Assembly: GCA_965222155.1 (NCBI GenBank)
Contig: CBDCTH010000004.1
Location: 160,001 to 224,000 of the forward strand
Direction: 5' to 3'
Length of the DNA stretch: 64,000 nt
From: Gammaproteobacteria bacterium
Lineage (GTDB): Bacteria; Pseudomonadota; Gammaproteobacteria; Eutrophobiales; Eutrophobiaceae
Below are positions 2,271 through 38,159 of this stretch, in pieces (within the stretch, counting starts at the first letter, position 1; each line of letters starts with the position of its first letter). The notes beneath the pieces are model-generated. The model searched no databases and was not told the origin of the DNA. It saw only the letters and a program-made list of their open reading frames with translations. A program made the position numbers and the translations under genes.

Positions 2271-2768
2271 ATGTCGATACCCGCGCCGCTTGAGCTGTAT
2301 AAGGACTTGATACTTCCTGAATGGATCGATTACAACGGCCACATGAACGTGGCCTATTACGTCCTGGTGTTTGACCGCGCCACCGATGATTTTTTCGATT
2401 TCATGGGTTTGACCGCCGAATACAGGACTGCCGCCAATGTCTCCGCCTTCACTGCGGAAATGCACGTGAATTATATCCGTGAGGTGAAGGAGGGTGACGA
2501 AGTATTCGTAACCACCCAGTTGCTGGATTACGATACAAAACGCTTCCATTATTTTCACCGCATGTACCATGCCGAACAGGGCTATCTTGCCGCCACTAAT
2601 GAATTGCTGTGCCTGTTCGTGGACATGAACCTGAGACGGGTAACGCAGATGCCGTCCCCGACCATGGACATGCTGGCCGAAATCAAACAAAGTCACGCCG
2701 TACTGCCGCTGCCCGAACAGGTCGGCAGTGTGATGAAGGTAAAGCCGAAAGGCATCGTGAAGGATTAA
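2271..2768 (+). CDS. Hotdog-fold acyl-CoA thioesterase (4HBT/CdhB-like)
   Basis: EWIDYNGHMNVAYY motif. Confidence 0.88.
   Translation: MSIPAPLELYKDLILPEWIDYNGHMNVAYYVLVFDRATDDFFDFMGLTAEYRTAANVSAFTAEMHVNYIREVKEGDEVFVTTQLLDYDTKRFHYFHRMYHAEQGYLAATNELLCLFVDMNLRRVTQMPSPTMDMLAEIKQSHAVLPLPEQVGSVMKVKPKGIVKD
2703..2743 (+). repeat. 41-bp direct repeat, copy 1 (thioesterase 3' end)
   Basis: ctgccgctgcccgaacaggtcggcagtgtgatgaaggtaaa, identical to 4235-4275. Confidence 0.95.
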
Positions 2769-2799
2769 TCAGTAGCCAGACCCCGAACGCCATTCCCGC

Positions 2800-3260
2800 C
2801 AGACAGGCGCCGGCGCGAAGAGTCCTTCTGACATGTTGCCTGCGGTCAGTCCCCCACTTGGGTTCTTTCAGATCGTTCCGGTATTCCGGGCGACATATCT
2901 GGTAGAGTTGGTCAAAGCCTTGTATCGTAGCGTTCATGAACGGGACCGTATGGACGTACATTCGCCACTCGCGGGATGCGCCGATGTTGGCAAAATCCGA
3001 TGAGACCATCCGTGCTGCACTGTTGCCGAATTCGTAACCTCGAATAATTCTGTCCATGCACGCCAACATATTCCCGGGAAGGGTTATCCGACATATCCTG
3101 GCGCCCTGTCGCCGCGTCGTTTTCCCTGAATGCGCCGTAGCGCCAGACATACTGGGTCAGGGACTCTCGGTGATTGATATGCTCAAAGCGCATTCCGACA
3201 CTTGGCCGTCCATGTTGTTCACCAATCGTCTGTGGTGCGTGCCGGCGGTGAATAAACAGG
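2800..3260 (-). pseudogene. Possible fragment of a phage-type large polyvalent protein (LPD38-associated region)
   Basis: Translation ARMVSSDFANIGASREWRMYVHTVPFMNATIQGFDQLYQ resembles the DF..G......VPF.NA..QG.D.LY motif; boundaries approximate. Confidence 0.35.
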
Positions 3261-3318
3261 GTTCTCCAAAAACGTAACTTTTTACAGAAGTCGTCAGCGC
3301 GGCTTGAATTATCGTCCT

Positions 3319-3732
3319 TTAACACGCCATAGCTCGCACATGGCCAGATATAGCATAATTCAGGATCTGCCTGTCGCGTGTGACCAGGGTACAGTCGAAC
3401 TCACGGGCAGTTGCAATAAGAATTCTATCGGCCGGGTCGGCAGGTGGTTCACCGGGGAGTGTCGTCGAAGCAATGAGGACTGAAGGTGACAGGTCTGCCA
3501 GTCTTACCCGCGGTAAACCGCATAACTTCCTGAACCAGACCTCCGGCCTGAGGGTCAACAGAATTCTCTTCTTTTCCGAGAGTATCGCGATTTCCCATGC
3601 CGTAATGGGAGAAACGACAAGCCGCCCGTTGCGTTCCAGTGCTAGCGGTAATTCTGTCTCGGCAGGGTCTTGCAGCGGATCGCCATTCATCAGCCAGATA
3701 GCCGCACACGTATCAAGAAGGTAATCCGTCAT
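3319..3732 (-). CDS. vapC: VapC PIN-domain toxin
   Basis: YLLDTCAAIW, SPITAWEIA, DPADRILIATA and LVTRD motifs. Confidence 0.92.
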   Translation of the reverse strand: MTDYLLDTCAAIWLMNGDPLQDPAETELPLALERNGRLVVSPITAWEIAILSEKKRILLTLRPEVWFRKLCGLPRVRLADLSPSVLIASTTLPGEPPADPADRILIATAREFDCTLVTRDRQILNYAISGHVRAMAC

Positions 3733-3738
3733 TTCGGA

Positions 3739-4140
3739 CTATTGCTGTGCGTTCCATTTCTCCCCTGTCGGCAAGGTCAGGTCAACTCCCGGCGCAATCG
3801 TGACCGTTCCTTCGAGTGCACCGAATATACGCGAAAACGGACTCGCGCCCTCATCCTTTCCAATCCTGTTGTTACTCAGGGCCGGAAGTTCACTCGCTGG
3901 TGCTTTCCTGAACACGAGTTTGCACTTCGCCATATCCACGTCCGCCGTTTTATATCCCGCACGGAGCCATGAGTCTGCATTAACATGGTTCGAAGGATTA
4001 TTTGACCACCAGGGACGGTATTGATAAGCCGAACGTGGTAAGTTATCACCAATCACTTCCTCAACTTCCGCAAACGTCATGGGGATGTAATCCATCCCGG
4101 AGGAGGACAGATAACCGGTTAAAGGTGCATATTTTGACAT
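3739..4140 (-). CDS. Probable antitoxin: KYAPL..FAEVE..LP.SA..WWSN domain fused to a VapB-like C-terminal peptide
   Basis: 6 bp upstream of vapC; the C-terminus IFGALEGTVTIAPGVDLTLPTGEKW resembles VapB neutralising tails. Confidence 0.7.
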   Translation of the reverse strand: MSKYAPLTGYLSSSGMDYIPMTFAEVEEVIGDNLPRSAYQYRPWWSNNPSNHVNADSWLRAGYKTADVDMAKCKLVFRKAPASELPALSNNRIGKDEGASPFSRIFGALEGTVTIAPGVDLTLPTGEKWNAQQ

Positions 4141-4171
4141 GATTCAACCCAAGAATAGTTATTACATGCGT

Positions 4172-4201
4172 AGTATATACTATAACTATAGTTAGTGTCA
4201 A
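4172..4201 (-). promoter_or_regulatory. sigma70-like promoter with palindromic operator for the antitoxin-vapC operon
   Basis: Minus strand TTGACA-18 bp-TATACT; palindrome TAACTATAGTTA in the spacer. Confidence 0.6.
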
Positions 4202-4234
4202 GACGCCTATCTTGTCAGGAACTATCATTGTTGG

Positions 4235-4275
4235 CTGCCGCTGCCCGAACAGGTCGGCAGTGTGATGAAGGTAAA
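4235..4275 (+). repeat. 41-bp direct repeat, copy 2 (orphan thioesterase 3' end, LPLPEQVGSVMKVNR*)
   Basis: Identical to 2703-2743 and followed by its own stop codon. Confidence 0.95.
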
Positions 4276-4448
4276 TCGATAGAATTGTTATGCCACAGAG
4301 GACACAGAGATTAGGTCAAACGGCTCAGCGTACCCCGGTTACATATTTTATTAACAGACTTCTTTGAAACGATGCAGGGGTTTAAATCCCTTTCACTTAA
4401 AAAGTTCTCAGTGCCCTCTGTGGCTGAACTCTCCCGTGGTCTTGAATT

Positions 4449-9728: not shown

Positions 9729-10343
9729 CTATGTTGTTGCCCTGCCACGATAGAGTTGTTTATTCAGCTTTTCCAGGTCGGTGGGAACATCCAGATCGAA
9801 TTCAGCTTCGGGGATGGGGATTGTCCTGACCCGGCCGGGATTATTTTGTAACACGGATTTTGCCCCCGCATCACCTTTAAGCGCCAGGAGTTGCGGATAA
9901 AATTCATCAGGAATAACGGCCGGTGTGCCCAGGGTATCGGCATAGCCGCTGGCAATGAACCTGGACGGGTCGTCAATCCACAAGTCTGTCAGCTGGCGCA
10001 GGTGATCTTCTGTGACCAAGACCTGGTCGCACATGGTGATCATGACACCATGGCAGCCCGGTTCAAGGCTGTCTATACCTGCCTTGAGCGAGGATGCCAG
10101 TCCTTCTTGCCAATGCACGTTGTAAATGAGGTTTACCGGCAAGTCGCTGATCGCCTGCGCCACCGATTCCGAGTTGGCTCCGACGACAACGCTGATCCTG
10201 TCATGGGGGAACAGTGACGAGAGTTTGTCGACGGCAAGCCGGACCAGGCTGGAGCCGTTTATTTTGATGAGTTGTTTACACTGGCCGTACCTGCTGGAAC
10301 CGCCCGCGGCAAGGACTATGGCTGATAATTCCCTGGTAAGCAT
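9729..10343 (-). CDS. MocA-like nucleotidyltransferase (molybdenum cofactor cytidylyltransferase family)
   Basis: IVLAAGGSSRYG..KQL, WQEGLASSL, CDQ, GDAGA and DLDVPTD motifs. Confidence 0.85.
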   Translation of the reverse strand: MLTRELSAIVLAAGGSSRYGQCKQLIKINGSSLVRLAVDKLSSLFPHDRISVVVGANSESVAQAISDLPVNLIYNVHWQEGLASSLKAGIDSLEPGCHGVMITMCDQVLVTEDHLRQLTDLWIDDPSRFIASGYADTLGTPAVIPDEFYPQLLALKGDAGAKSVLQNNPGRVRTIPIPEAEFDLDVPTDLEKLNKQLYRGRATT

Positions 10344-10479
10344 AAATGCATCATGATGAAGAAAAATGTTGCTGTCAAAAAGAGTTGCATCAATTTGCAA
10401 TGAAAGCAGGCAGCTTTGATTTTCGACAGGCGCTTTGATTCCTGCTTATCTGTTCCTGACAAATCATAACATTTAACGA

Positions 10480-10508
10480 TTGACGTTTAACGCTATTCGT
10501 TATATTAT
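10480..10508 (+). promoter_or_regulatory. higBA promoter with operator; probably leaderless
   Basis: TTGACG-17 bp-TATTAT; TAACG-N5-CGTTA in the spacer; ATG 6 nt after the -10 box. Confidence 0.7.
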
Positions 10509-10514
10509 TGCTGC

Positions 10515-10793
10515 ATGATTAAGCACTTTGCCTGCAAGCGCACGGAAGCCCTGTTTGGTGGGCATTGTCCGCGACAATTTCGAGCATTTCGGGCACAGGC
10601 AGAGCGAAAATTACAGATGCTGAATAGTGCTGTTCATATTGATGATTTGCGATTCCCGCCCGGCAATCGGCTAGAGAAACTCGGGGGCGACCGGGAAGGA
10701 CAGTGGAGTATACGGCTAAACCGGCAGTGGCGATTGTGCTTTGTCTTCAATGACGGTAAGGCAACCGATGTTGAGATTACAGATTACCACTAG
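10515..10793 (+). CDS. higB: HigB (RelE-family) toxin
   Basis: PPGNRLEKL.GDR.GQWSIR.N.QWR and ITDYH motifs. Confidence 0.93.
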   Translation: MIKHFACKRTEALFGGHCPRQFRAFRAQAERKLQMLNSAVHIDDLRFPPGNRLEKLGGDREGQWSIRLNRQWRLCFVFNDGKATDVEITDYH

Positions 10794-10803
10794 GAGAAAT
10801 TCC

Positions 10804-11145
10804 ATGACTGTTAATAAAATGAGGCCCATACATCCCGGTGAAATCCTACGGGAGGAGTTTTTGATACCTACAGGTATGACTGCTAACGCCCTGGCAAGGG
10901 CATTAAGGGTTAATGCCCCACGCATCAATGACATAGTGCGGGAACAGCGCGGCATTACGCCGGACACCGCCCTGAGATTGGCAGCATTTTTACAGACCTC
11001 GCCCGAATTCTGGTTGAACCTGCAAACAGCTTATGACTTGAAGGTAGCCGATGCGGCGAAAGGTAAAACCATACGCGCTGAAATCGTGCCGCGGCAAATG
11101 CAGACAGAAGAAAACCGGACATCAATGCGGGTGGAAAGCAGATGA
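10804..11145 (+). CDS. higA: HigA antitoxin
   Basis: HPGEILREEFL, ITPDTALRLA and PEFWLNLQ motifs. Confidence 0.93.
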   Translation: MTVNKMRPIHPGEILREEFLIPTGMTANALARALRVNAPRINDIVREQRGITPDTALRLAAFLQTSPEFWLNLQTAYDLKVADAAKGKTIRAEIVPRQMQTEENRTSMRVESR

Positions 11146-11427
11146 TCCCTCAAGAAACAGTGGGTAGTGCAAGTAACCAAACATGAATTATCAAGTCTCT
11201 ATGACGAACCGCCAAGACTTATCCGTATTATGTCGGTGAGCGATTATTTTTCAGCAAGTGCCATACAGCTATTCGTTTGGTTCGTCTTTGTAATATTTTG
11301 AAATTACAGAGAGTTCCGGAAAATAATTGAAAATCAATAATGGAAGACTAGCAGATGATAAAATGTTTTTCTCACCAGCATGGATATAGAGGAACGGATG
11401 TAGAAATCACGGTCCGCAATGATGTGA

Positions 11428-11477
11428 CCGTACCTGCTCGATCCTCCTGCCGCCAGGACTAGAGCGGATAATTCCAT
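11428..11477 (-). pseudogene. Orphan 5' stub of the MocA-like gene (MELSALVLAAGGSSRYG)
   Basis: Aligns to 10285-10332 with mostly third-position differences. Confidence 0.85.
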
Positions 11478-11521
11478 TACCTGTTTTGACCTGGTCACAA
11501 TCATCTGGTAGTGGTCTGTTG

Positions 11522-11956
11522 TCAAGAGGCCAACGGAAACCGGCAATCCAAACCGGGAAAACGTCGGAAATCCTGATCTGCCGTATGTACTTCGGCTTGA
11601 TGCGAAATTGCAAATTCAGCGATTTGAGCATCGGTGACCATATTGCCTCCCGAAGACCCCACCGCAGCAAGTAGTTCCAGTACGTGACGGGTGTGCCGGG
11701 CAGTTGGATAAAGCGTCTGCGTGATTTGGCGATCATGCCAGGACTCGACGATCTGTGTAGCCTGTATTAGTGATAAAGGATGTTCAAATGCACGGTGATT
11801 AGTGCTGATTCGAACAAAGGCAAATATAACGGGGTGACAAAGCCCGACGGGAACGGAGCCATTCAGACAACCTGACCACCATTGTTTAGCAGCGCTATGA
11901 AAAGGACTTGTTGAGTCGACCGCATACAGCAACAGGTTTGCATCCGGCACGATCAT
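11522..11956 (-). CDS. vapC: VapC PIN toxin (actinobacterial-like type)
   Basis: MIVPDANLLLYA, GNMVTDAQIA and TADQDFRRFPGL motifs. Confidence 0.92.
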   Translation of the reverse strand: MIVPDANLLLYAVDSTSPFHSAAKQWWSGCLNGSVPVGLCHPVIFAFVRISTNHRAFEHPLSLIQATQIVESWHDRQITQTLYPTARHTRHVLELLAAVGSSGGNMVTDAQIAEFAISHQAEVHTADQDFRRFPGLDCRFPLAS

Positions 11957-12237
11957 CCGGGTGGGGACTGATTACCCAAACGGCGTGAAAGAGCAAGGAA
12001 AGCATCCACTTCCAAATCGTCATTGAGGGAATTGATGTGGGCAGGATCGTAGCCGCTGCGAAGACCCATCGGAAATGACTGTTGGACAAAAGACGTTTTA
12101 TCGGTATCACAAAGCAAGTCTGCAAGCCCCCTGGTAACAGCCTGGTTCAACGTTTCCTTGAAACTCTGCCCGCGCTGGTGCATAGCTTCACGGAGCAGGC
12201 GTTCGGTTTCCGGTTCCAATGTTACTGTAGTACGCAT
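11953..12237 (-). CDS. vapB: VapB ribbon-helix-helix antitoxin
   Basis: MRTTVTLE...SFKETLN; overlaps the vapC start. Confidence 0.85.
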   Translation of the reverse strand: MRTTVTLEPETERLLREAMHQRGQSFKETLNQAVTRGLADLLCDTDKTSFVQQSFPMGLRSGYDPAHINSLNDDLEVDAFLALSRRLGNQSPPG

Positions 12238-12341
12238 AAGATACATAATGATGTAAATATTATTTGCTGTCAAGATGATGATCTTAAACGTGATGATCTT
12301 AAACGTATAATATAGAAATTCGGAATGGATTTGTGCCGCCA

Positions 12342-12549
12342 GCGGGAACAGCGCGGCATTACGCCGGACACCGCCCTGAGATTGGCAGCATTTTTACGGA
12401 CCTCGCCTGAATTCTGGTTGAACTTGCAAACAGCTTATGACTTGAAGGTAGCAGAAGCTGCGGAAGGTAAAATCATACGCGCAGAAATTGTGCCGCTCCA
12501 TACACAGACAGAAGAAAATCAGACATCTATTCGGGCGGAAAGCAGGTGA
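12342..12549 (+). pseudogene. higA: Orphan 3' 208 bp of higA
   Basis: Diverged colinear copy of 10938-11145; N-terminus missing. Confidence 0.9.
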
Positions 12550-13118
12550 CTCCTATGCGGCATATCCCACACAAGTACGGAAGCAAGCTGAATCTCATCG
12601 GTTTTCCGGGAACAGGATACAGGTATCCTCTTTTTTCGCCAAAATGTGACTTTTCTCACAATTCAGTTAATTCTTCGCTTTCCAATTCATCTCGCCCGAG
12701 TAAAATTATCATTGCCATAGGGAAACAAGGCGGCGGTCAATCCAGGCTGAACGGGACTGAACACCCTGACGCCAGATGATCGGTCGAATGGAATTCGATA
12801 ATTCTGTTGTTTGTTGAGTGCCTTCATGCCTGAGGGTGGCCCGGTTAGTAGTCTCCAGGGCCAGGGATCAGGGACAGCCCGAGGGCGCCAAGGGGGGCGG
12901 TGTTTCATCTGCTGCTGATATTGCTGCGCCGCCCCCCTTTGGCAGAGGCATGACCAGTCGCCGCTCCGGCAAACCTCTTCCTTATGATTCCCGACTTCGG
13001 CGGTGTCCATACCGTCTATTTGTTAATAACACCTCCAAATTCAATATAGGCACTACGATAACCTATCTGTAATACGATGACACTCAATTCCGCTGTCAGC
13101 TCCGAACCCGTCACTCTT

Positions 13119-14045
13119 TCATTTTTTGGTGTTGTATCGCGTTTGTTCTTCAAGCACCCTGTCTATTCCCCTCATCCAATTCAGATCTTTTCCAATGACC
13201 AGCTCGGTCATTGCAGCGTGATGAGTATTTTTCATTGAGATAGGTTTGACTTGAAACCCGTACTGTTTGGACAGTTCCTTAACCTCAGAGGTATTATCGT
13301 AGGTCATTATAAAATCTCCCTTAATTGATGTACATAACTCAAACAAGGTCCCATGATCCAGTTCATAATGCGTATATAAACGACTGCCCGCCTTTTTACC
13401 GCCGGCGGTGTATGGTGGATCCATGAAAAACACTGCCCCGGGAAAGTCCTTATACTGATTAATAACCTCGAAAGCGTCACCATGCTTAAATCGGAGCTTA
13501 CTGACTATTTGATTGATATCTCTCAGCCTCTTTGCAAGTGTGCTTGGATACCATCTCGAAAGAATACCTTTTCCACTTTCTCCGTTTTTGAGAAAGCCTG
13601 AGCCTGCTGCCAGGATACCGCCGTGGAAGGTTCTGTTTTTTATTATGGTTTGGAATGCCTTCTCTTTCTGACACCTCCTTTTTTTTCGGAGCTCGGCGAC
13701 GGCATTATCTTTTGTCATTTCAAAAGTAAGAATCCTTCTCGCAAGCCATTCTGCCTCGCCATCAACTATGGTTTGCCAGACTGCCGCAATCTCTTCGTCT
13801 AACTCAACCATAAGAGCATTTTCCACCAAATATTCAAACACAGCTGTCAGTGACACGATCCCGCCTCCAACAAATGGTTCAACCAATACTTCCGGTTTTG
13901 AGGATTGGCTGAGAAGCCATTCGCGCAGTCTTGGAATAAACCACGTTTTACCTCCCGGGTAGCGAAATGGACTACGCTGTGGAACAGAGGCTACATTCAC
14001 TACTTTCAAAGGTTCAAGTTCATCACTGAAAAGTAGTCTCTGCAT
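13119..14045 (-). CDS. D12-class DNA methyltransferase (Dam-like family)
   Basis: SPFRYPGGK, EPFVGGG and FMDPPY motifs. Confidence 0.9.
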   Translation of the reverse strand: MQRLLFSDELEPLKVVNVASVPQRSPFRYPGGKTWFIPRLREWLLSQSSKPEVLVEPFVGGGIVSLTAVFEYLVENALMVELDEEIAAVWQTIVDGEAEWLARRILTFEMTKDNAVAELRKKRRCQKEKAFQTIIKNRTFHGGILAAGSGFLKNGESGKGILSRWYPSTLAKRLRDINQIVSKLRFKHGDAFEVINQYKDFPGAVFFMDPPYTAGGKKAGSRLYTHYELDHGTLFELCTSIKGDFIMTYDNTSEVKELSKQYGFQVKPISMKNTHHAAMTELVIGKDLNWMRGIDRVLEEQTRYNTKK

Positions 14046-14046
14046 A

Positions 14047-14608
14047 TTACCCGCCTCCGAAGGGGCTCTCAATGGTATTGTTGACAGGAAGACTCTCCAG
14101 CTTTTCATCTACCTTTGATTGAAGTAGATTCATGAATTTCTCCACCTTTCCAATCTTCGGCTTTGTTATGGTGTTCAGAGCATTAATAAATTTAGTGTAG
14201 ACAACCTTGAATTTCCGGTGATCCGAAATCGTAGACTTTTCCTGCATCGTTGTAAGCCACGAGAACTACATCAATATTTCCAGCAGAGTTTCCGTAGTAA
14301 TCGACTAATCTTACCTCTGTGAGGGAGGTCCATGTCGAATCAGGACCAAAGAAAAAATCTGCTGCATCATCTGCAATAAGCCAATTCTCACGGAATCTTA
14401 TGGGACAGGTGATTACAGGATTCTTTCCATGTAATATACTGCACACGCCAAGTGGATCCTTGGCCTTGTCTTTCGTACAACTTGGAACTTTGTTGTTAAA
14501 GGGACAGAGTTTATTTTTTCGAAAGCGCGTCGCCTTCAAGCTGAAATCTGTTGGTAAATGTCCAAAAATTTCTGCGAGTGGTTGGCTCTATTCTTTCATT
14601 TCTGCCAT
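14047..14608 (-). pseudogene. NotI-family restriction endonuclease, inactivated
   Basis: CPF..CTK..GVCS..CPIRF, EVRL, NIDVVL and EIQ motifs; TAG at codon 7; frameshift with probable internal deletion after EIQG. Confidence 0.75.
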
Positions 14609-14830
14609 GGGTTGCTCAGCTTCTTGGTTCTTTAACTATACAGAGAATAAACTCCTTCTGAAAGGTCATTTGAATAGTAGTAGCAGCTCCCGCTAACTGG
14701 ATTGAAAGAGAGTTTTCATTCCGAAAAATCACATTCCGAAAAACCAATCGACACCCAACCCTTTGATTTAGTAAACTGTACAGACATTGGTCAGCGGGAG
14801 TAATCGGGAGGTTGCTCCCGTTTTGTATGT

Positions 14831-15985
14831 GTGTCACTTCCGTGGAGGTATTTATTGGGTCATTCGGCTTTACTCGCGCTGGCAGACGGTAGTCTGTTCT
14901 ATGGTGAATCCATCGGCGTCGATGGTGAAGCGGTCGGCGAGGTAGTTTTTAATACCTCGATTACCGGTTACCAGGAGATTCTCACGGATCCGTCCTACTG
15001 CCGGCAGATCATCACCTTTACCCAGCCGCAGATCGGCAACGTGGGTGTCAATTCAGAAGATGCGGAATCAACCCGGGTCTATGCCGCCGGCATGGTCATC
15101 AAGCAGGCGCCTCAGATACCGAGCAATTGGCGCACCGAGCAATCGCTTCCCGATTACCTGAAAGCCAGCGAGGTCATTGCAATCGCCGATATTGATACCC
15201 GCCGTCTCACCCGCTTGCTCAGGGACAAGGGCGCGCAGGACGGTTGCATTCTCGCCGGGCCGGAACCGGATGAAGCGCGCGCAGTTGAACTTGCCCGCGG
15301 GTTTCCCGGACTGCAAGGGATGGACCTGGCCAGGGAAGTGAGCACAAGGCAGGACTACCGCTGGCAGGACGGCGCCTGGTCACTCGCGGGCGGGTACGGA
15401 CAGCCGAGTATGGCGCCAAAGCGGAAAGTTACGGCCATCGATTTCGGCGTGAAAAGAAATATCCTGCGCATCCTGGCTGACCTCGGTTGTGAACTGGAGG
15501 TGGTACCGGCGACCACGCCTGCAGACCGGATACTGGCGCGTTCCCCTGACGGCGTGTTTTTATCCAACGGTCCCGGCGACCCGGAGCCTTGCACTTATGC
15601 CATAAGCGCTATCCGGGACATCGTAGCTGCAGGCGTCCCCACCTTCGGCATCTGCCTGGGACACCAGTTGCTGGGGCTTGCCTGCGGAGCCGAAACGGTG
15701 AAAATGAAGTTCGGCCACCACGGCGGCAATCATCCGGTGCAGGAACTGGCTACCGGGAAGGTCATGATCACCAGCCAGAACCACGGTTTCACCGTTGCTG
15801 AAGAATCCATCCCCGAGGTGTTGTCGGTCACCCACCGGTCACTGTTTGACGGCACGGTGCAGGGCATCCATCATAAGCAACAACCCGCATTCGGCTTTCA
15901 GGGGCACCCGGAAGCCAGTCCCGGGCCCCACGACGTCAAGCCGCTTTTCGACCACTTCATGAATTTAATGGAGATAAATAAATGA
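14831..15985 (+). CDS. carA: Carbamoyl-phosphate synthase small subunit (true start may be TTG near 14855)
   Basis: [21 protein letters not shown] and [12 protein letters not shown] motifs. Confidence 0.97.
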
Positions 15986-30252: not shown

Positions 30253-30285
30253 TATGATGCGATTATTTAACATAATCGCATCATA
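30253..30285. promoter_or_regulatory. 14-bp perfect inverted repeat upstream of fic; probable operator
   Basis: tatgatgcgattat-ttaac-ataatcgcatcata. Confidence 0.6.
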
Positions 30286-30326
30286 ATGTACTATTATATG
30301 AAGCGAATAACGGGTATGATCGCGTC

Positions 30327-32327: not shown

Positions 32328-32580
32328 TATAAACAGGAACCCTAATATTCTGGGCGGCACTCCCGTCTTCACAGGTACCAGGGTTCCGGTCCGTATTCTG
32401 ATGGAGTATCTGGAGACCGGAGACAGCTTAGATGATTTTCTGGATCAGTACCCTTCTGTCAGCCGTGAACAGGCAGTTCAATTAATTGAACTGGCCACAG
32501 AGAAACTGACGACAGACACAGGGTATGAAGCTTCTCCTAGACAAGTCCGTGCCTCGGCGCCTGGCAACCAGTTTCCCTGA
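32328..32580 (+). CDS. DUF433 antitoxin
   Basis: ILGGTPVFTGTRVPV..DDFLDQYPSV. Confidence 0.85.
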
Positions 32581-32585
32581 CACAC
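32525..32585 (+). pseudogene. Truncated DUF5615 PIN-like toxin
   Basis: MKLLLDKSVPRRL, after which similarity is lost near the convergent gene end. Confidence 0.6.
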
Positions 32586-32636
32586 AGACGCGAGATGCAG
32601 GTGGCAGGCATTTATGGGGTTGCCGTACCGATCCGG

Positions 32637-33962: not shown

Positions 33963-33972
33963 TTTTACGAAC

Positions 33973-34755
33973 CTATCTGGTTTCCCGGGCAGGGCCGTAG
34001 GTTTTCAGATATTTGCGCGACAGTTCTTCCGCTTCGGTGACCCCGGCTTCAGTCATACCTTGTCTTAACTTTTCCATTGCCTCGGTTGCTGCATTGAACC
34101 CCAGCGCGGCGGCAACGCTGAACCAAGCATAGGCCTGCATCTCGTCCCTGGGTAGCCCGTGGCCTCCAGCATACATATGACCAAGATTATGCTGCGCCCC
34201 GGCGTGGCCACGCTCAGCAGCCAGGCGGTACCAGAGGACGGCCCTGGCATCGTCTCTGGGCACGCCTTCGCCGCGGGCGTACATGTATCCCAGGTAATAC
34301 TGTGCGACGGCATGCCCCTGTTCGGCGGCTGAACGGAACCAGCGTGCGGCCTCGGCATGATCCTCAGGCATCTCCTTTCCCTGAGCGTACATATTGCCAA
34401 GATGGTATTGTGCGGCGGCATGCCCCTGCACGGCAGCTTCGCGCAACCAGTGGACGGCGTTGTCAGTATCTTTGTCTACCCCGTCGCCCCGTGCATATTT
34501 GTGTCCCAGGTAGTATTGCGCAGACGCATGTCCCTGTTGCGCAGCCGAGAGGAACCAGCGTGCGGCCTCGGCGTCATCTTCGGGGACGCCTTGGCCGTGG
34601 TCGTACCTGTTGCCGAGAAGAAACTGGGCCCCGGCGTCGCCCCGTTCGCCGGCCTTTATTAATTCTTCCAGTTCGCCTGCGAGGAGCACCGGGCAGGCAA
34701 ACAGAATCAAGCCCGCCAGCAGAGATCTGAACATGAGAAATTTATAGTCAGGCAT
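33973..34755 (-). CDS. Secreted Sel1-repeat protein
   Basis: About five AQ.LG..Y..G.G....D...A..W...AA.QG repeats. Confidence 0.92.
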   Translation of the reverse strand: MPDYKFLMFRSLLAGLILFACPVLLAGELEELIKAGERGDAGAQFLLGNRYDHGQGVPEDDAEAARWFLSAAQQGHASAQYYLGHKYARGDGVDKDTDNAVHWLREAAVQGHAAAQYHLGNMYAQGKEMPEDHAEAARWFRSAAEQGHAVAQYYLGYMYARGEGVPRDDARAVLWYRLAAERGHAGAQHNLGHMYAGGHGLPRDEMQAYAWFSVAAALGFNAATEAMEKLRQGMTEAGVTEAEELSRKYLKTYGPARETR

Positions 34756-34806
34756 ACCTTTCCCGCTTCTGCAACCGATTGTTCAGGTGTTTGCCCGACA
34801 TATTAA

Positions 34807-34929
34807 TCAGTGGCCGGTTGCCCGCTCCATAGCGCGCAGTACTTTTTCCCGGCTGAATTCCCGCCAGCGGGCGACGACATGTTGATCGGGCCGTATCAGG
34901 TAATAAGTGCCCGGCAGGGCGTTGTAGTG
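34807..34929 (-). pseudogene. Orphan 3' 123 bp of the FAD monooxygenase gene
   Basis: Encodes HYNALPGTYYLIRPDQHVVARWREFSREKVLRAMERATGH*; diverged copy of 36480-36602. Confidence 0.9.
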
Positions 34930-35005
34930 TCCAGCGTAATTTTGACTGGGTAAACGCGAAAAGGCCATCTCCTTTGAAGTGTCTAACGGATCGGAGTCAA
35001 TTGAT

Positions 35006-35413
35006 TTATTTGGTCAGTCTGTCAGCTACAATTTGTGCGGTTCGAATTAACGCATCGAGTAATCCGATATCGATGTCAAGCTCGCCCTCGTATTCAGCAA
35101 GATTGCGTTTTCTGTGAGCCTGTTCAAGGATGCGCCATTGCTCGTTTGCGAGCTCCAAAGTGTGCTTGAGACACTGGAACACAATGTATCGACTATCAGA
35201 TCGATATCCGGCTTTACGAAGAGCAGCGAGCGATAGCGCATGCGCCGCGTTGTATGCCAGGTCGAACCGCGACTCGATGTTGAGTGATCCGTCTTTTGCG
35301 TCGTTGAGTCGAGCCAGACCGGAACGAATCAGTCCGCCCACTTCCCGCTCAGAAGACGGCTCGATTTTAAGGCTACCCACCTTGACCAGATTGTTTAACT
35401 GCTCACGCGGCAC
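35006..35413 (-). CDS. HEPN-like toxin
   Basis: RFDLAYNAAH..GYRS..RKRNLAEY; coupled to the MNT gene. Confidence 0.75.
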   Translation of the reverse strand: MPREQLNNLVKVGSLKIEPSSEREVGGLIRSGLARLNDAKDGSLNIESRFDLAYNAAHALSLAALRKAGYRSDSRYIVFQCLKHTLELANEQWRILEQAHRKRNLAEYEGELDIDIGLLDALIRTAQIVADRLTK

Positions 35414-36044
35414 CCAGGTCCCCCCAGAGCACGGTAGTCGGCCCTTCCAGCACACGTTTCAGAAAGGAGTTGCCGTTGCTGCGCCGCTTGCTGAACTCCA
35501 TTACTGTGTAGAGTGTGGGGTTGATTTGCCTGCCCACCTTTATTTCGGCGGTAGAAAGATGCGAATAAAGATCTTCCAGGGTCAGATGATCTGATACAAC
35601 GAGCAGATCTATGTCACTCCCGGCTGTATCCGACTGCTTTGCCACCGAACCGTAAATCAGGGCGATGAATATTTGCGCTGCCAGTGGTTCGAGCGTTGCC
35701 CGCACCTGCTCCTGAACACCAACGGTCTTACTGATGATCGAACACAACTCATTGTATATCGGTGCATATGAATTAGCCCGGCAGTGCTTTTGATTCCCAT
35801 GCCGCTCTGTCACGACCAGTCCACTGCGCTCAAGACGCGTCAGTTCACGCTGAACGGCGCCTCGCCCAACATTGGCGAGTTCAATTAATTCAGTGACGAA
35901 GAAACTCCTTCCGGGTTGGCCAAACAACAACCCGAGTAAACGTTTTTGTGTTGTAGTAAACAACGCATCCGACGGCGAAGCAGTGCTCGGCTTACCGGCT
36001 TCTGCAGATGTCAAGCGTTGGCGGATTGAGAGGTCTGTACCCAT
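35403..36044 (-). CDS. HTH plus minimal nucleotidyltransferase (MNT) antitoxin
   Basis: N-terminal wHTH; YGSVAK...SDIDLLVV. Confidence 0.85.
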   Translation of the reverse strand: MGTDLSIRQRLTSAEAGKPSTASPSDALFTTTQKRLLGLLFGQPGRSFFVTELIELANVGRGAVQRELTRLERSGLVVTERHGNQKHCRANSYAPIYNELCSIISKTVGVQEQVRATLEPLAAQIFIALIYGSVAKQSDTAGSDIDLLVVSDHLTLEDLYSHLSTAEIKVGRQINPTLYTVMEFSKRRSNGNSFLKRVLEGPTTVLWGDLGAA

Positions 36045-36479
36045 AAAGAGTACTTTAATCCCCTTTTTGGGTATAGTCAAGTATTGATGTCAGACAGGAT
36101 AGGGTCGTCGGCAGGATAGGGTCGGACCTGCCTGACTATTTGTTTCAGCTCAGTTTATGTTCCATCTATGCCCATTATTTCTCCTTAGAACCCCCTTTTT
36201 GCTATCAAAATCGAGGTTGTAACATCCACATGCCTGTTTGACGGCATTACTCTCCTGATTTACTGTGGCCTGCTTGTGCAACGTCTGATACTTCCTCCTT
36301 AAAATCCTGTTTTGGCGTACGAAAACCGCAGTTTAAGCCCAGGATAGCACGTCTTTTGTGACAGTTTCCCTTTATTATCAGTAGGTTCTGTCAGGCTGGA
36401 CTGGTCTGACCCTATACTGGGCTCCCATTCCGGCAACGGTGTGGACTCTACTGTCCGGGCGTTGTGCCTGGCGCATTTT

Positions 36480-38159
36480 TCAATGGCCGGTTGCCCGCTC
36501 CATTGCGCGTAATACCTTTTCCGGGTTGAATTCCCGCCAGCGGGCGGCCACGTGTTGATCGGGTCGTACCAGGTAATAAGTACCCGGCAGGGCGTCGTAG
36601 TGCCGGTGCAGCAGACCGTTGCTGTCGGCGATATAGCCGTTACCGCTGTTTGTCCGGCTGACGATAATGGTTTCAACCGGTACCCGGTCTGAACCGACGC
36701 TGTTTACTTCTGCCGGTGCGTCGCCGTTGTCACTGAAATAAATACCAACGAAACGGTCGCCCAGTTGATTCAGGAACCAGGCGTCAGCGCCGTTAATAGA
36801 AACAGGGGCGTCGAGACAGGGCGCGCCGGGGCGTTGTCTGTTGCTGAACTCATCCTCATCCGGTGTGTTCAAGGGAGAACCGTCCAGCACGCTGGGGGTG
36901 GACAAACGGCCCGGGTTCACGAACTTGCGGGCGAACTCAAAATCCTTGGCAAGTTCCAGGGCGGCGTTGCGGAAGGCGAGACTGACTTCGCTTTTCGGGG
37001 TCATGAAGTCCGTGCTTCGGGATGAATTCATCACGTTTTCCTGCGCAGCGAGTATGCGTTCGTCATCGTAACTGTTGATCAGACCGGGCGGGGCGGCGCC
37101 CGTTAACACCAGGTGGAGTTTCCAGACAAGATTATCGGCGTCCTGCAACCCGCCGTTGGCCCCCCGCGCCCCGAAAGGCGAGACGAGATGGGCCGAGTCG
37201 CCGGCGAAAATGACGCGGTCATGGACGAATTTTTCCATACGGCAGCATTTGAACGTGTACAGGCTCACCCATTCGTATTCGAATTCCAGGTCCGTACCGA
37301 GGAAGGCCTTTATCCTGGCGTCGATATTCTCTTCCTTCATCACCTCGTCACGGTCGATATCCCAGCCCATCTGAAAATCGATGCGCCATACGTCATCGGC
37401 CTGCTTGTGGATCAGCGATGTCTGTCCGGGATTGAACGGCGGGTCGAACCAGAAGCGCCGGATGGCCGGGAAGTCCGCCTTCATGCGCACGTCTGCGATA
37501 AGAAAGTTGTCTTCAAACACGCGGCCTATGAAGTCCAGCCCCAAGGCGTCTCGAATCGGGCTGCGATGCCCGTCCGCGGCAACCAGGTAATCACAACTGA
37601 GCCGATATTCCCCGGCGGGAGTCCTGACCGTCACGGTGACCTTGTCGGTGCCGTTGGCAACACCGATCACCTCGTTTTGCCAGCGAATTTCAGTCTCCGG
37701 GTATTGCGGAAACAAGTCGACCAGGTATTCTTCGGCATAGAACTGTTGCAGGTTAATAAACGCCGGAAACTTCTGCTCTTTGTCCGGCAGCAAATCAAAC
37801 TTGTAGATCGGCTCGGTTTCCTGACCGAAATAGACCCAGCCCTGGTTCCATACCACGCCTTTTTCCATCATGCGTTTACTGGTGCCGATACGATCGAGGA
37901 TTTCCAGTGTGCGTTTCGCCCAGCAGATTGCCCTGGAGCCATCGCTGACGGTGTTGTATTTTTCCAGCACGACTGATTGGATACCGTGACGGGCAAGGTC
38001 TATGGCGCTGGCCAGGCCGATTGGCCCGCCGCCGGCGATGATAACCGGGAAATGGGGAATTTCACCAGAGTCGATCTCAGCGGGCCTGATAAATTCATAA
38101 ACGCACCGCGCCTGGCGACTGGTCTGTTTGGCGCTGCCTATATCGCCGTATTTTGCCAT
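36480..38159 (-). CDS. FAD-dependent aromatic monooxygenase (MhpA/PheA-like family)
   Basis: GGGPIG, ADG, GDSAH..PFGARGAN and RPDQHV motifs. Confidence 0.9.
   Translation of the reverse strand: MAKYGDIGSAKQTSRQARCVYEFIRPAEIDSGEIPHFPVIIAGGGPIGLASAIDLARHGIQSVVLEKYNTVSDGSRAICWAKRTLEILDRIGTSKRMMEKGVVWNQGWVYFGQETEPIYKFDLLPDKEQKFPAFINLQQFYAEEYLVDLFPQYPETEIRWQNEVIGVANGTDKVTVTVRTPAGEYRLSCDYLVAADGHRSPIRDALGLDFIGRVFEDNFLIADVRMKADFPAIRRFWFDPPFNPGQTSLIHKQADDVWRIDFQMGWDIDRDEVMKEENIDARIKAFLGTDLEFEYEWVSLYTFKCCRMEKFVHDRVIFAGDSAHLVSPFGARGANGGLQDADNLVWKLHLVLTGAAPPGLINSYDDERILAAQENVMNSSRSTDFMTPKSEVSLAFRNAALELAKDFEFARKFVNPGRLSTPSVLDGSPLNTPDEDEFSNRQRPGAPCLDAPVSINGADAWFLNQLGDRFVGIYFSDNGDAPAEVNSVGSDRVPVETIIVSRTNSGNGYIADSNGLLHRHYDALPGTYYLVRPDQHVAARWREFNPEKVLRAMERATGH

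What the first reader, a model, noticed from the sequence alone, without database searches (positions are those of the whole stretch)
2703..36602. Recurrent integrase-free TA cassettes bracketed by duplicated gene ends
Seen: in four places a 1.1-1.7 kb block carrying a TA module lies between two copies of a gene terminus. These are the thioesterase 3' end (2703/4235, VapBC), the MocA-like 5' end (10285/11428, HigBA), the higA 3' end (10938/12342, VapBC) and the monooxygenase 3' end (36480/34807, MNT-HEPN). In each case one intact gene remains plus an orphan stub. Three of the four pairs are diverged, and in the MocA-like and monooxygenase pairs many changes are synonymous. The repeats share no common sequence, and no integrase is present. 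Inference: the cassettes arrive carrying a relative's allele of the gene end and displace the resident end. This could be homology-anchored illegitimate recombination or an unrecognised trans-acting capture system that parks TA genes at gene termini.
Basis: partly seen in the sequence, partly recalled or inferred. Interest (0 to 1): 0.8.

Follow-up and report, generated by a model that had tools for sequence, protein, structure and literature searches.

The report
Gene-end stubs flanking toxin-antitoxin cassettes
Short leftover copies of ordinary gene ends sit beside small toxin-antitoxin gene blocks; they look like scars left when DNA from related bacteria was patched in at the same variable spots, which is a known kind of recombination scar and not a new mobile system.

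Summary
All four repeat pairs are real. They are the only direct repeats of 35 nt or more, lying 300-6000 nt apart, in the window. Each brackets a two-gene addiction or defence module.

Relatives show empty sites. The Lhr|thioesterase gap is 231 nt or less in 5 of 12 syntenic loci. The carA|mocA gap is about 240 nt or less in 4 of 10. Both spots are toxin-antitoxin hot spots in other relatives.

The mocA and higA pairs are not independent. Region 10344-14737 is a stack of three alternative alleles of one hot spot, and each begins with a mocA 5' stub. I found a third stub at about 13072-13118. Each allele occurs next to an intact mocA in a relative: L015, L006 and L012.

Differences between the copies are biased towards synonymous changes. 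Flanking core genes fall from about 97% to 78-90% identity with the nearest relative. No recombinase gene or shared core sequence was found.

Best reading: repeated import of relatives' alleles, anchored by homology on one side. It resembles "insertion with long target duplication" of restriction-modification genes and the sequential displacement seen in Rhs and T6SS loci. A dedicated capture system is not needed. The monooxygenase site could not be compared with relatives.

The parts
2271..2768 (+). Thioesterase gene, intact. Its last 8 codons (2744-2768, tail KPKGIVKD*) lie beyond the repeat.
   Evidence: Pfam 4HBT_2 E=7e-35. Tails compared with those of 12 relatives.
2703..2743 (+). Thioesterase 3'-end repeat, copy 1, inside the intact gene.
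   Evidence: 41/41 identical to 4235-4275.
2769..3318 (.). Unassigned 550-nt stretch between the thioesterase stop and the PIN stop.
   Evidence: No Pfam, NCBIfam or PADLOC hit for its ORFs. No nucleotide or protein-level match in 79 loci.
3319..4204 (-). DUF7662-PIN cassette (PIN 3319-3732, DUF7662 3739-4140, promoter region up to about 4204).
   Evidence: Pfam. Homology to L015 (85%) and L007 (80%) starts exactly at the PIN stop codon and ends about 60 nt upstream of the DUF7662 start.
4235..4282 (+). Orphan thioesterase 3' stub: the 41-nt repeat plus its own short tail (VMKVNR*).
   Evidence: The tail resembles VMKVKR* of L007, L010 and L011 (VMKVKRN* in L012).
4287..4429 (.). Inverted-repeat element between the stub and the Lhr stop.
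   Evidence: Inverted repeat I5. The arm recurs elsewhere in L001 and L009.
9729..10343 (-). mocA-like cytidylyltransferase gene, intact. Repeat copy A is at 10282-10332.
   Evidence: Pfam NTP_transf_3; TIGR03310 match below its cut-off; repeat.
10344..10391 (.). Native mocA/carA promoter box (D10).
   Evidence: Conserved upstream of mocA in L003, L005, L009, L015 and L001.
10472..11148 (+). Layer 1 cargo: higB (10515-10793) and higA (10804-11145). Repeat copy B is at 10938-11148.
   Evidence: Pfam HigB-like toxin; TIGR02607 HigA. 85% identical to the L015 higBA, which lies next to an intact mocA.
11149..11424 (.). Spacer Q, of unknown origin. It ends at the illegitimate joint 11424|11425.
   Evidence: No match in 79 loci.
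11425..11477 (-). mocA 5' stub A': ATG plus 17 codons (MELSALVLAAGGSSRYG), cut on the side facing mocA.
   Evidence: 9 of 10 differences from copy A are synonymous.
11485..12279 (-). Layer 2 cargo: vapC (11522-11956), its partner (11953-12237) and a displaced copy of the promoter box (D10', 12241-12278).
   Evidence: TIGR00028. Window 11425-12279 is 79% identical to L006 2367-1512, where mocA is intact.
12342..12553 (+). higA 3' stub B' (ORF 12325-12549), cut on the side facing mocA.
   Evidence: 190/212 identical to B; 84% identical to the L015 higA.
13072..13118 (-). Third mocA 5' stub A'': GTG plus about 14 codons (VTGSELTAELSVIVL), 4 nt after the methyltransferase stop.
   Evidence: Window 13083-13347 is 89% identical to L012 7914-7650, where the same junction leads into an intact mocA. 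As a peptide alone the match is weak (E=0.16).
13119..14539 (-). Layer 3 cargo: D12-class adenine methyltransferase (13119-14108) and a truncated NotI-like endonuclease (14192-14539, 115 aa).
   Evidence: Pfam; PADLOC MTase_II. L012 keeps only methyltransferase residues 255-329, next to mocA.
14738..15985 (+). carA upstream region and carA. This is the far edge of the hot spot.
   Evidence: Homology to relatives resumes at 14738.
34780..34929 (-). Orphan monooxygenase 3' stub: 40 codons, stop codon and 27 nt downstream.
   Evidence: 127/151 identical. The stub peptide differs from the intact end at 5 of 40 residues and from P0009, P0016 and P0017 at 3.
35006..36080 (-). Two-gene module: a 149-aa partner (35006-35455) and a wHTH-nucleotidyltransferase (35403-36080).
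   Evidence: Pfam Polbeta/NTP_transf_2/MarR_2. PADLOC PDC-M05A E=4e-74 and PDC-M05B E=2e-59.
36098..36420 (.). MITE-like element with terminal inverted repeats, inside the bracketed block.
   Evidence: 81% identical to L001 14907-14610, which lies in the L001 Lhr|thioesterase gap.
36452..38159 (-). FAD monooxygenase gene, intact (36480-38159), with repeat copy 36452-36602.
   Evidence: NF006002 E=3e-230. 96.6% identical to P0003, evenly along its length.
43079..43232 (+). A further gene-end duplicate: the antitoxin (HTH_37) 3' end 43079-43121 is repeated at 43190-43232, just past its stop codon, with a different tail.
   Evidence: Repeat family D9, 88% over 43 nt; sequence; translation.

Best explanation
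The stubs are recombination scars at variable intergenic hot spots. They are not the ends of a self-mobile element.

Proposed mechanism. In this lineage the short gaps Lhr|thioesterase and mocA|carA, and probably monooxygenase|Sel1, hold different addiction or defence cassettes in different relatives. DNA from a relative that carries another allele of the hot spot enters the cell. It pairs by homologous recombination in the flanking core gene. At its far end it is joined illegitimately inside the resident copy of that gene's terminus, or inside a resident cassette gene. The incoming piece supplies a complete gene end plus its cargo. The resident gene end survives as a stub, cut on the side that faces the gene and pushed outward together with the older cargo.

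Three rounds of this at mocA built the stack:
- layer 1: mocA | higBA | spacer Q;
- layer 2: stub A' | vapBC | higA stub;
- layer 3: stub A'' | methyltransferase plus endonuclease remnant | carA.

Shown by the data: the duplicates; the empty sites; the matching alleles next to an intact mocA in relatives; the polarity of the stubs; the synonymous bias; the mosaic divergence of the flanks; the absence of a recombinase gene or a shared core.

Inferred: the one-sided homologous plus illegitimate mechanism; the order of events (outermost layer oldest); the route by which DNA entered.

A further inference concerns the cargo. Toxin-antitoxin and restriction-modification modules may be over-represented between stubs because clean replacement of a resident addiction module kills the recombinant. 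Additive events would then be the ones that survive.
For: - Empty sites. The Lhr|thioesterase gap is 50-231 nt in 5 of 12 syntenic loci. The carA|mocA gap is about 170-240 nt in 4 of 10. The window has 1681 and 4488 nt at these two places.
- Same spots hold other cassettes. Six of the 12 relatives carry toxin-antitoxin-type genes in the Lhr|thioesterase gap: Fic/Doc, PIN-RHH, BrnT, Phd, DUF433/DUF5615 and DUF7662-PIN.
- Every layer of the mocA stack exists as a natural allele next to an intact mocA: higBA in L015 (85%), vapBC behind the displaced promoter box in L006 (79% over 862 nt), and the methyltransferase 3' end in L012 (89%).
- Stub polarity. All three stubs of that stack with a separate partner (A', B', A'') are cut on the mocA-proximal side.
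- Synonymous excess in the three diverged pairs: P=8e-5, 0.002 and 0.015.
- Mosaic flanks. Identity to L001 is 96-100% in the 5' half of Lhr and in carB. It falls to 78-90% in the thioesterase gene, the 3' part of Lhr, GFA, mocA and carA.
- No recombinase and no shared core. No recombinase domain in 113 ORFs and no common core among the repeats.
- The scar occurs elsewhere, with varied cargo: L004 (thioesterase 3' end, 95/103), L025 (GH5 3' end, 146/159), L051 (acetyl-CoA synthetase 3' end, 438 nt at 84%) and L015 (148/168).
- A cargo-free case in the window. The duplicated 3' end of the HTH_37 antitoxin gene has nothing between its copies, which points to a general recombination scar.
- Precedent in print. 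The same logic was proposed for T6SS effector-immunity arrays and for Rhs loci (PMC5361080, passages read).
Against: - The thioesterase pair is 41/41 identical. That is unexpected for an allele from a donor 10-20% diverged (0.9^41 is about 1%). This site fits a true target duplication, a very close donor, or later gene conversion better.
- No relative holds the arrangement that the site-1 donor should have had, namely the new tail plus the 550-nt stretch (0 of 79 loci).
- At the monooxygenase site the intact gene is uniformly 96.6% identical to P0003, its end included. No mosaic is visible, and which copy was the donor's is unresolved.
- None of the 10 relatives searched holds an extra mocA 5' stub. 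The stacking is so far unique to this genome.
- Microhomology at the illegitimate joints could not be tested, because the donor sequences beyond the joints are unknown.
- Homology-facilitated illegitimate recombination is rare in experiments (stated in PMC5361080). Whether this organism takes up DNA is unknown from 64 kb.
Confidence: 0.6

Rival explanations
1. Portable attachment site. Each cassette with one copy of the gene end excises as a circle by RecA recombination between its flanking direct repeats. After transfer it re-integrates Campbell-style at the orthologous gene end of a relative. The borrowed gene end would serve as the cassette's attachment site, and no recombinase of its own would be needed.
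For: The product is structurally identical to what is seen: direct repeats of a gene end around a 1.1-1.7 kb cargo. The longest identical runs (41 and 56 nt) are long enough for RecA pairing. A similar life cycle was hypothesised for restriction-modification genes flanked by long direct repeats (PMC2853133, passages read).
Against: The mocA pair has identical runs of only 11 nt or less, which is too short for efficient RecA crossover. The stub-plus-cargo blocks match natural alleles with an intact gene in relatives, which linear imports explain without a circle. No cassette was seen with the same stub at another locus. Circular junctions cannot be looked for without reads.
Confidence: 0.15
2. 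True long target duplication. A foreign fragment was inserted at a staggered or replication-associated break. The target was duplicated at that moment, and the copies then diverged in place.
For: The thioesterase pair is 41/41 identical, and the reading frame of the intact gene simply runs into the insert. This matches the class described for restriction-modification genes: repeats of 30 bp or more, no mobility genes, repeats overlapping gene 3' ends (PMC2853133).
Against: For the other three pairs, divergence of 10-20% far exceeds the roughly 3% baseline to L001, which lacks the mocA-side insert. Decay in place would not give 9 of 10 synonymous differences. The stub blocks also have allelic counterparts in relatives.
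Confidence: 0.1
3. Decayed integrative elements, or cassettes moved by a site-specific recombinase encoded elsewhere (CIME-like). The repeats would be attL/attR with a gene-end mimic, the integrase would have been lost, and the addiction module would be the last survivor.
For: Integration into gene 3' ends with a replacement end is classical for integrases (general knowledge). In L010 a 174-nt repeat pair (137/176) brackets TacA-GNAT plus a fragment with a weak Arm-DNA-binding match (E=7e-5, below the Pfam cut-off).
Against: No integrase domain or remnant in the window cargo, even at E<=5. There is no shared core and no identical core in the mocA and monooxygenase pairs. One target is a gene 5' end. 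The cassette boundaries coincide with the promoter and the stop codon, leaving no room for a lost integrase. The stack layers equal natural alleles in relatives.
Confidence: 0.07
4. Assembly artefact: alleles from different strains in a mixed sample were chained into one contig.
For: The stack joins three alleles that exist separately in relatives. The relatives are metagenome-assembled genomes, so the window may be one too.
Against: The joints lie at points with no shared sequence between the joined pieces. Identical runs at mocA are 11 nt or less, so an assembler has no overlap to follow. The same kind of duplicate is present in L004, a record titled as an assembled chromosome. The window's contig is long: 622,150 nt are listed for its protein.
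Confidence: 0.03

Closest known systems
Insertion with long target duplication of restriction-modification gene complexes (Nobusato et al. 2000, seen only as a citation; Furuta, Abe & Kobayashi 2010, PMC2853133, passages read)
   Same: An addiction-type gene block under 20 kb sits between direct repeats longer than 30 bp. It has no mobility gene. The repeats overlap the 3' ends of neighbouring genes, and an empty site exists in a related genome. The window's thioesterase site (41/41) fits this class item for item, and the stack even contains a restriction-modification remnant.
   Different: The cargo here is toxin-antitoxin. Three of the four pairs are 80-90% identical with a synonymous bias, so they are two alleles and not a duplicated target. 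One target is a gene 5' end. The events are stacked serially.
Sequential (C-terminal) displacement in Rhs, CDI and T6SS effector-immunity loci, with homology-facilitated illegitimate recombination proposed as the mechanism (Kirchberger et al. 2017, PMC5361080, passages read; Jackson 2009 and Poole 2011 seen as citations and search listings)
   Same: An incoming module arrives with a homologous anchor, takes over the functional gene end, and pushes the former end and its partner gene outward as orphans. Repetition builds arrays. No integrase is involved.
   Different: In those loci the anchor gene is part of the toxin system itself. Here the anchors are unrelated housekeeping genes (thioesterase, mocA-like, monooxygenase) and the displaced pieces are 15-70 codon stubs. 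At mocA it is the N-terminus that is displaced.
Homology-facilitated illegitimate recombination in transformable bacteria (de Vries & Wackernagel 2002, Prudhomme et al. 2002, Meier & Wackernagel 2003; seen as citations in PMC2884548 and PMC5361080)
   Same: One homologous anchor plus one illegitimate joint allows foreign DNA to be added next to a conserved gene.
   Different: Here it is inferred from genome scars only. Uptake, anchor length and joint microhomology were not observable.
Additive flexible genomic islands and integration hot spots (Lopez-Perez & Rodriguez-Valera 2016, PMC4898812, passages read)
   Same: Fixed genomic positions hold different cassette combinations in related strains, toxin-antitoxin and restriction-modification genes among them. 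A partial repeat of the target gene lies downstream of an added cassette.
   Different: In that paper most hot spots (6 of 8) are tRNA or tmRNA genes. Here the targets are protein-gene termini and no integrase is present.
Integron gene cassettes (general knowledge; off-site cassette insertion seen only in the search listing and abstract of bioRxiv 10.1101/2022.09.11.507474)
   Same: Compact cassettes reduced to an operon, often toxin-antitoxin, added serially at one place.
   Different: No integrase was found, no inverted-repeat structure was seen at the cassette ends, and the flanking repeats are gene ends.

Membership tests
Insertion with long target duplication (criteria of Furuta et al. 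2010) | Direct repeats longer than 30 bp flank the insert | tested here: met
   Repeats of 41, 51, 212 and 151 nt.
Insertion with long target duplication (criteria of Furuta et al. 2010) | Insert under 20 kb, without mobility genes | tested here: met
   Spacing of 1143-1673 nt. No integrase or transposase domain in the cargo.
Insertion with long target duplication (criteria of Furuta et al. 2010) | A related genome has an empty site with a single copy of the repeated sequence | tested here: met
   Thioesterase: L002, L003, L011, L012, L068. mocA: L001, L003, L005, L009.
Insertion with long target duplication (criteria of Furuta et al. 2010) | The two repeats are near-identical copies of one target (a duplication made at insertion) | tested here: inconclusive
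   Met at the thioesterase site (41/41). Not met at mocA (41/51), higA (190/212) or the monooxygenase (127/151), where the differences show a synonymous bias.
Insertion with long target duplication (criteria of Furuta et al. 2010) | Cargo includes restriction and modification genes | tested here: not met
   The bracketed cargo is toxin-antitoxin type. A methyltransferase plus a truncated endonuclease form only the outermost layer of the stack.
Sequential displacement arrays (Rhs, CDI, T6SS effector-immunity) | One functional gene is followed by one or more orphan fragments of the same gene end, each with its own partner cargo | tested here: met
   mocA, then stub A' with vapBC, then stub A'' with the methyltransferase.
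Sequential displacement arrays (Rhs, CDI, T6SS effector-immunity) | The displaced gene is itself the polymorphic toxin or effector | tested here: not met
   The anchors are a thioesterase, a mocA-like transferase and an FAD monooxygenase.
Homology-facilitated illegitimate recombination | Donor-type sequence extends from the insert into the flanking gene as far as a homologous crossover | tested here: inconclusive
   Identity of the flanks to L001 falls from about 97% to 78-90% around both hot spots. This is compatible, but the lineage that received the import cannot be assigned. No mosaic is visible in the monooxygenase.
Homology-facilitated illegitimate recombination | Short microhomology at the illegitimate joint | not testable with these tools
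   The donor sequence beyond each joint is unknown. Joint contexts are listed.
Integrase-borne integrative element or CIME | A tyrosine or serine recombinase gene or remnant in or beside the element | tested here: not met
   0 of 113 ORFs in the window carry such a domain. Cargo ORFs were re-scanned at E<=5.
Integrase-borne integrative element or CIME | An identical core sequence within both repeats, shared by elements of one family | tested here: not met
   Longest words shared between the pairs are 5-9 nt, within the shuffle range. Identical runs within a pair are 11 nt or less at mocA.
Integron cassette | An attC-type imperfect inverted repeat at the cassette end and an integron integrase | tested here: not met
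   No inverted repeat of 18 nt or more at the cassette ends except unrelated MITE/REP-like elements. No integrase in the window. The rest of the genome was not seen.

The most novel reading that the evidence does not exclude
Toxin-antitoxin cassettes in this lineage use a borrowed piece of a host housekeeping gene as a portable attachment site. Recombination between the flanking gene-end repeats releases a circle that carries the cargo and one gene-end copy. After transfer, the host's own RecA re-inserts the circle at the orthologous gene end of a relative. The addiction module makes loss or clean replacement lethal, so cassettes pile up as stub-marked stacks. This would be a mobile element with no recombinase of its own.
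Probability: 0.12. Interest if true: 0.75.

Novelty: new variant of a known kind. Interest (0 to 1): 0.45.

Why it matters
How chromosomal toxin-antitoxin modules move without any mobility gene is a long-standing loose end. These stubs are a readable record of single acquisition events. They say where the joint fell, that the incoming DNA was a relative's allele of the same hot spot, and in what order the layers arrived.

If the pattern holds genome-wide, gene-terminus stubs could be used to count one-sided (additive) recombination events in uncultured bacteria. They could also test whether addiction modules bias hot-spot turnover towards stacking instead of replacement.

The finding also warns annotators that short orphan ORFs beside such cassettes may be gene-end fossils.

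My searches found no paper that links this scar to toxin-antitoxin cassettes. Searches gave nothing on it, and one search found 1 paper holding both 'homology-facilitated illegitimate recombination' and 'toxin-antitoxin', a modelling study. The library lacks most subscription journals, including the original 2000 paper on long target duplication.

Tried and rejected
- tRNA-linked integration. The only tRNA in the window (tRNA-Ser, 27312-27401) is not at any of the four sites. There are no tRNA genes in the 9 loci scanned.
- Rfam. Only that tRNA reached the gathering score in the window.
- A common boundary motif or core among the repeats: none.
- Identity of the 550-nt stretch 2769-3318, spacer Q, region 12554-13071 and the other unassigned pieces. 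There were no Pfam, NCBIfam or PADLOC hits and no six-frame match to 79 loci. I ran no further search on them.
- A breakpoint inside mocA. Identity in 40-nt bins against 10 relatives shows only the conserved motif near the 5' end and no clear step.
- Extra mocA stubs in relatives: none in 10 loci.
- Which monooxygenase copy is resident. The C-terminal 40 residues were compared with 43 database homologues (P0002-P0044). The intact end is nearest P0002 and P0003 (2 differences); the stub is nearest P0009, P0016 and P0017 (3 differences). The intact gene shows no mosaic, so the direction stays open.
- HEPN assignment of the 149-aa protein. There was no Pfam or NCBIfam hit, and no PDB sequence match better than E=0.66.
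- Structure prediction, complex prediction and atlas searches were not used, because they do not bear on the question.
The monooxygenase site and the region after tRNA-Ser therefore stayed unchecked in relatives.

Full report
**1.
The repeat finder and gapped local alignment give four direct-repeat pairs:
- 2703-2743 = 4235-4275 (41/41);
- 10282-10332 vs 11425-11475 (41/51);
- 10938-11148 vs 12342-12553 (190/212, first 56 nt identical);
- 34780-34929 vs 36452-36602 (127/151, running 27 nt beyond the stop codon).

A self-blastn of the window (same strand, 35 nt or more, 300-6000 nt apart, E<=1e-4) returns exactly these four pairs and nothing else.

Each pair brackets a two-gene module:
- PIN with a DUF7662 partner;
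- HigB/HigA;
- a VapC-family PIN with an unassigned 94-aa partner;
- a wHTH-nucleotidyltransferase with a 149-aa partner. The partner has no Pfam or NCBIfam hit, so 'HEPN' is unconfirmed. The pair matches the PADLOC candidate system PDC-M05A/B at E=4e-74 and 2e-59.

One copy of each duplicated gene is full length by its domain matches. Pfam scans of 57 main ORFs and of 56 further ORFs lying outside them found no integrase or other site-specific recombinase. The only mobility gene is the DDE transposase of an insertion sequence at 58567-60342. The repeats share no core: the longest common words are 5-9 nt, as in shuffles.

**2. The copies diverged as working genes.**
Counting by codon:
- mocA: 9 of 10 differences synonymous (P=8e-5 against the neutral share of synonymous sites);
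- monooxygenase: 9 of 14 (P=0.002);
- higA: 10.5 of 21 (P=0.015).

A stub decaying in place would not give this pattern. Most of the divergence therefore arose while both copies were parts of functional genes, that is, in different genomes.

**3. Relatives: empty sites and hot spots.**
One scan of genome contigs with the Lhr helicase (4449-9017) returned 79 loci. All are records titled as metagenome-assembled genomes, mostly Gammaproteobacteria.

tblastn with seven window proteins found the thioesterase gene beside Lhr in 12 of 79 loci. It found both mocA and carA in 10 of 79.
- The Lhr|thioesterase gap is 50-231 nt in 5 of the 12 (L002, L003, L011, L012, L068), about 560 nt in L001, and 0.9-5.8 kb in six others. 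In the window it is 1681 nt.
- The carA|mocA gap is about 170-240 nt in 4 of the 10 (L001, L003, L005, L009). In the window it is 4488 nt.

Homology of the window to L003 and L005 stops at 10381-10383 and resumes at 14738-14739. The whole of about 10384-14737 is therefore an insert relative to them.

The six long Lhr|thioesterase gaps all hold toxin-antitoxin-type genes:
- L007: Fic/Doc and DUF7662-PIN;
- L015: DUF7662-PIN, Fic-MazE and DUF433;
- L005 and L009: PIN-RHH, with BrnT as well in L009;
- L010: Fic/Doc, Phd and a cut DUF7662;
- L004: Phd, DUF5615-DUF433 and NYN.

The window's DUF7662-PIN cassette aligns to those of L015 (85%) and L007 (80%) from exactly the PIN stop codon to about 60 nt upstream of the DUF7662 start. 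The unit that recurs is thus the bare operon with its promoter.

**4. The mocA and higA pairs belong to one stacked structure.**
The pairs are interleaved (A, B, A', B').
- L015 has mocA, the native promoter box and higBA in the same order as window 10250-11141 (85%).
- L006 has an intact mocA directly preceded by the vapC and vapB homologues and then by the promoter box. This matches window 11425-12279 (79% over 862 nt; VapC 83% and partner 82% at protein level).

The window's stub A' with vapBC is therefore an L006-type allele whose mocA was cut after codon 17.

Four nucleotides after the methyltransferase stop codon come GTG and about 14 codons (VTGSELTAELSVIVL, about 13072-13118). L012 has the same methyltransferase 3' end running into an intact mocA (89% over 265 nt). 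As a bare peptide match the stub is weak (E=0.16). Its support is the contiguous nucleotide homology.

The insert reads as three layers:
- layer 1: mocA | promoter box | higBA | spacer Q;
- layer 2: A' | vapBC | promoter box copy | 62 nt | higA stub B' | 518 nt;
- layer 3: A'' | methyltransferase | truncated NotI-like endonuclease, followed by carA.

All three stubs are cut on the side that faces mocA.

**5. The flanks are mosaic.**
Against the nearest relative L001, identity in 250-nt bins is 96-100% in the 5' half of Lhr and in carB. It is 84-92% in the 3' part of Lhr, 89-92% in the thioesterase gene, 78-89% in GFA and mocA, and 87-90% in carA. In mocA the window is about as far from L001 as from L003, L008 or L015. 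Diverged DNA has been exchanged across both hot spots and into their flanking genes, in one lineage or the other.

**6. Mechanism proposed.**
The simplest account has four steps.
- DNA from a relative carrying another allele of the hot spot pairs homologously in the flanking core gene.
- Its far end is joined illegitimately a few codons inside the resident gene terminus, or inside a resident cassette gene, as for higA stub B'.
- The incoming piece provides the working gene end and new cargo.
- The old end is left as a stub, with the old cargo behind it.

Repetition gives the stack, with the newest layer next to the gene. This accounts for seven features: position at gene termini, variable repeat length, divergence with synonymous bias, stub polarity, empty sites, alleles seen in relatives, and the absence of a recombinase or a core.

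Survival of only those events that keep the flanking gene intact explains why the joints cluster at the last or first codons. Thioesterase tails differ among relatives from the same two codons onward.

The homologous-plus-illegitimate mechanism, the order of events and the route of DNA entry are inferred, not shown.

I add one hypothesis. All three layers at mocA are addiction-type modules (HigBA, VapBC, restriction-modification). Clean replacement of such a module should kill the recombinant, so additive events would be the survivors. This would explain the cargo bias. It does not apply to the thioesterase and monooxygenase sites, where no older cassette lies behind the stub.

**7. What does not fit, or stays open.**
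- The thioesterase pair is 41/41 identical, which is unlikely for a donor 10-20% diverged. This site fits a true 'long target duplication', a very close donor, or later conversion.
- The site-1 donor arrangement (new tail plus 550 unassigned nucleotides) is in none of the 79 loci. The tails do not tell which copy is resident.
- For the monooxygenase I could compare proteins only. The intact gene is 96.6% identical to P0003, evenly along its length. Its last 40 residues differ from P0002 and P0003 at 2 positions. The stub differs from the intact end at 5 positions and from P0009, P0016 and P0017 at 3.
- No relative among the 10 searched has extra mocA stubs.

**8. The scar is not specific to toxin-antitoxin genes or to this genome.**
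In the self-blast of all 79 loci (1.35 Mb), 17 loci had at least one direct pair under the same filter. I examined six of them.
- L004: the thioesterase 3' end (95/103) is repeated 2.3 kb away across Phd-like and NYN genes.
- L025: a GH5 3' end (146/159) is repeated across a Schlafen/AlbA_2 gene.
- L051: an acetyl-CoA synthetase 3' end (438 nt at 84%, synonymous excess P=1.5e-7) is repeated across 5.3 kb holding an FAD oxidoreductase and an Ig-domain protein.
- L015: the 3' end of an unassigned ORF (148/168) is repeated across 4.1 kb that includes Fic-MazE.
- L010: a 174-nt non-coding repeat lies around TacA-GNAT plus a sub-threshold integrase-arm fragment.
- L067: unclear.

The other 11 loci were not studied. 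Among them are the internal repeat of carB, paralogous genes of about 0.7-1.1 kb, and tandem arrays.

Within the window, the 3' end of the HTH_37 antitoxin gene (43079-43121) is repeated just past its stop codon, with a different tail and no cargo between. The toxin gene next to it has an in-frame TAG.

**9. Comparison with what is known.**
- Closest in form is 'insertion with long target duplication' of restriction-modification genes: repeats over 30 bp, no mobility genes, repeats overlapping gene 3' ends, empty sites in sister genomes, mostly in competent species (PMC2853133, passages read). The founding paper appears there and in a toxin-antitoxin review only as a citation.
- Closest in logic is sequential displacement in Rhs, CDI and T6SS effector-immunity loci, for which homology-facilitated illegitimate recombination was proposed (PMC5361080, passages read).
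- Hot spots with cassette turnover and a partial repeat of the target are described as additive flexible islands, mostly at tRNA genes (PMC4898812, passages read).
- Illegitimate recombination assisted by homology was proposed for dimorphic loci in general (PMC2884548, passages read).

New here: the cargo is toxin-antitoxin; the repeats are demonstrably two alleles and not a duplicated target; and a housekeeping gene's 5' end has been displaced twice in series. I found no paper that links this scar to toxin-antitoxin cassettes, but the library is incomplete.

**10. Verdict.**
It is best explained by repeated, homology-anchored additive recombination at hot spots shared with relatives. It is a new variant of a known kind. 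A dedicated capture system is not needed and has no support. A recombinase-free 'portable attachment site' cycle remains possible at low probability.

Noticed in passing
window 13072-13118 (-): A third mocA 5' stub (GTG plus about 14 codons) lies 4 nt after the methyltransferase stop codon. L012 has the same junction leading into an intact mocA.
   Followed up: yes
window 42493-43232 (+): A Gp49/HigB-like toxin gene has an in-frame TAG at 42589-42591, next to an intact HTH_37 antitoxin gene. The antitoxin's 3' end (43079-43121) is repeated at 43190-43232, just after its stop codon, with a different and shorter tail.
   Followed up: partly
window 36098-36420; L001 14610-14907: A MITE-like element of about 310 nt with terminal inverted repeats lies inside the monooxygenase-site cargo. 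An 81% identical copy sits in the Lhr|thioesterase gap of L001, and one end of it is in L009.
   Followed up: partly
window 4287-4429, 24131-24318, 28079-28155: Three palindromic or repeated non-coding elements. The arm of the first recurs at other places in L001 and L009. The second combines an exact 47-nt tandem repeat with an inverted copy, between glmM and serA.
   Followed up: no
window 13119-14539 (-): A D12-class adenine methyltransferase lies next to a NotI-like endonuclease reduced to 115 aa (profile positions 6-135 of 238). This is a decayed restriction-modification pair that leaves an orphan methyltransferase.
   Followed up: partly
window 27312-36480: tRNA-Ser is followed by about 9 kb of accessory-looking genes: an unassigned 205-aa ORF, a frameshifted Sel1 fragment at 28198-28562, PIN_3 with an excisionase-type HTH, Fic, DUF433, a 441-aa unknown and Sel1. 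No integrase is present. The region was not compared with relatives.
   Followed up: no
window 11953-12279 vs 10341-10391; L006 1512-1620: The vapB-like gene starts where the mocA start codon and 5' leader would be, behind a copy of the native mocA promoter box. In the L006-type allele the cassette therefore sits between the promoter and a re-started mocA, and is probably co-transcribed with it.
   Followed up: partly
window 493-2239 vs L001 15464-16145: More small differences from L001. The 431-aa ORF 511-1806 is represented in L001 only by its last 115 residues. Window 1817-2239 (the 150-aa ORF 1803-2255) is absent from L001.
   Followed up: no
window 58567-60342: An insertion sequence with perfect 22-nt terminal inverted repeats and a DDE_Tnp_1_4 transposase. 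Its right end abuts the start of an amidohydrolase gene.
   Followed up: no
L004 16869-19307: Besides the thioesterase 3' end, a MazF-like 3' fragment of about 104 nt is also duplicated (88%), in nested order. The gap holds several gene stubs.
   Followed up: partly
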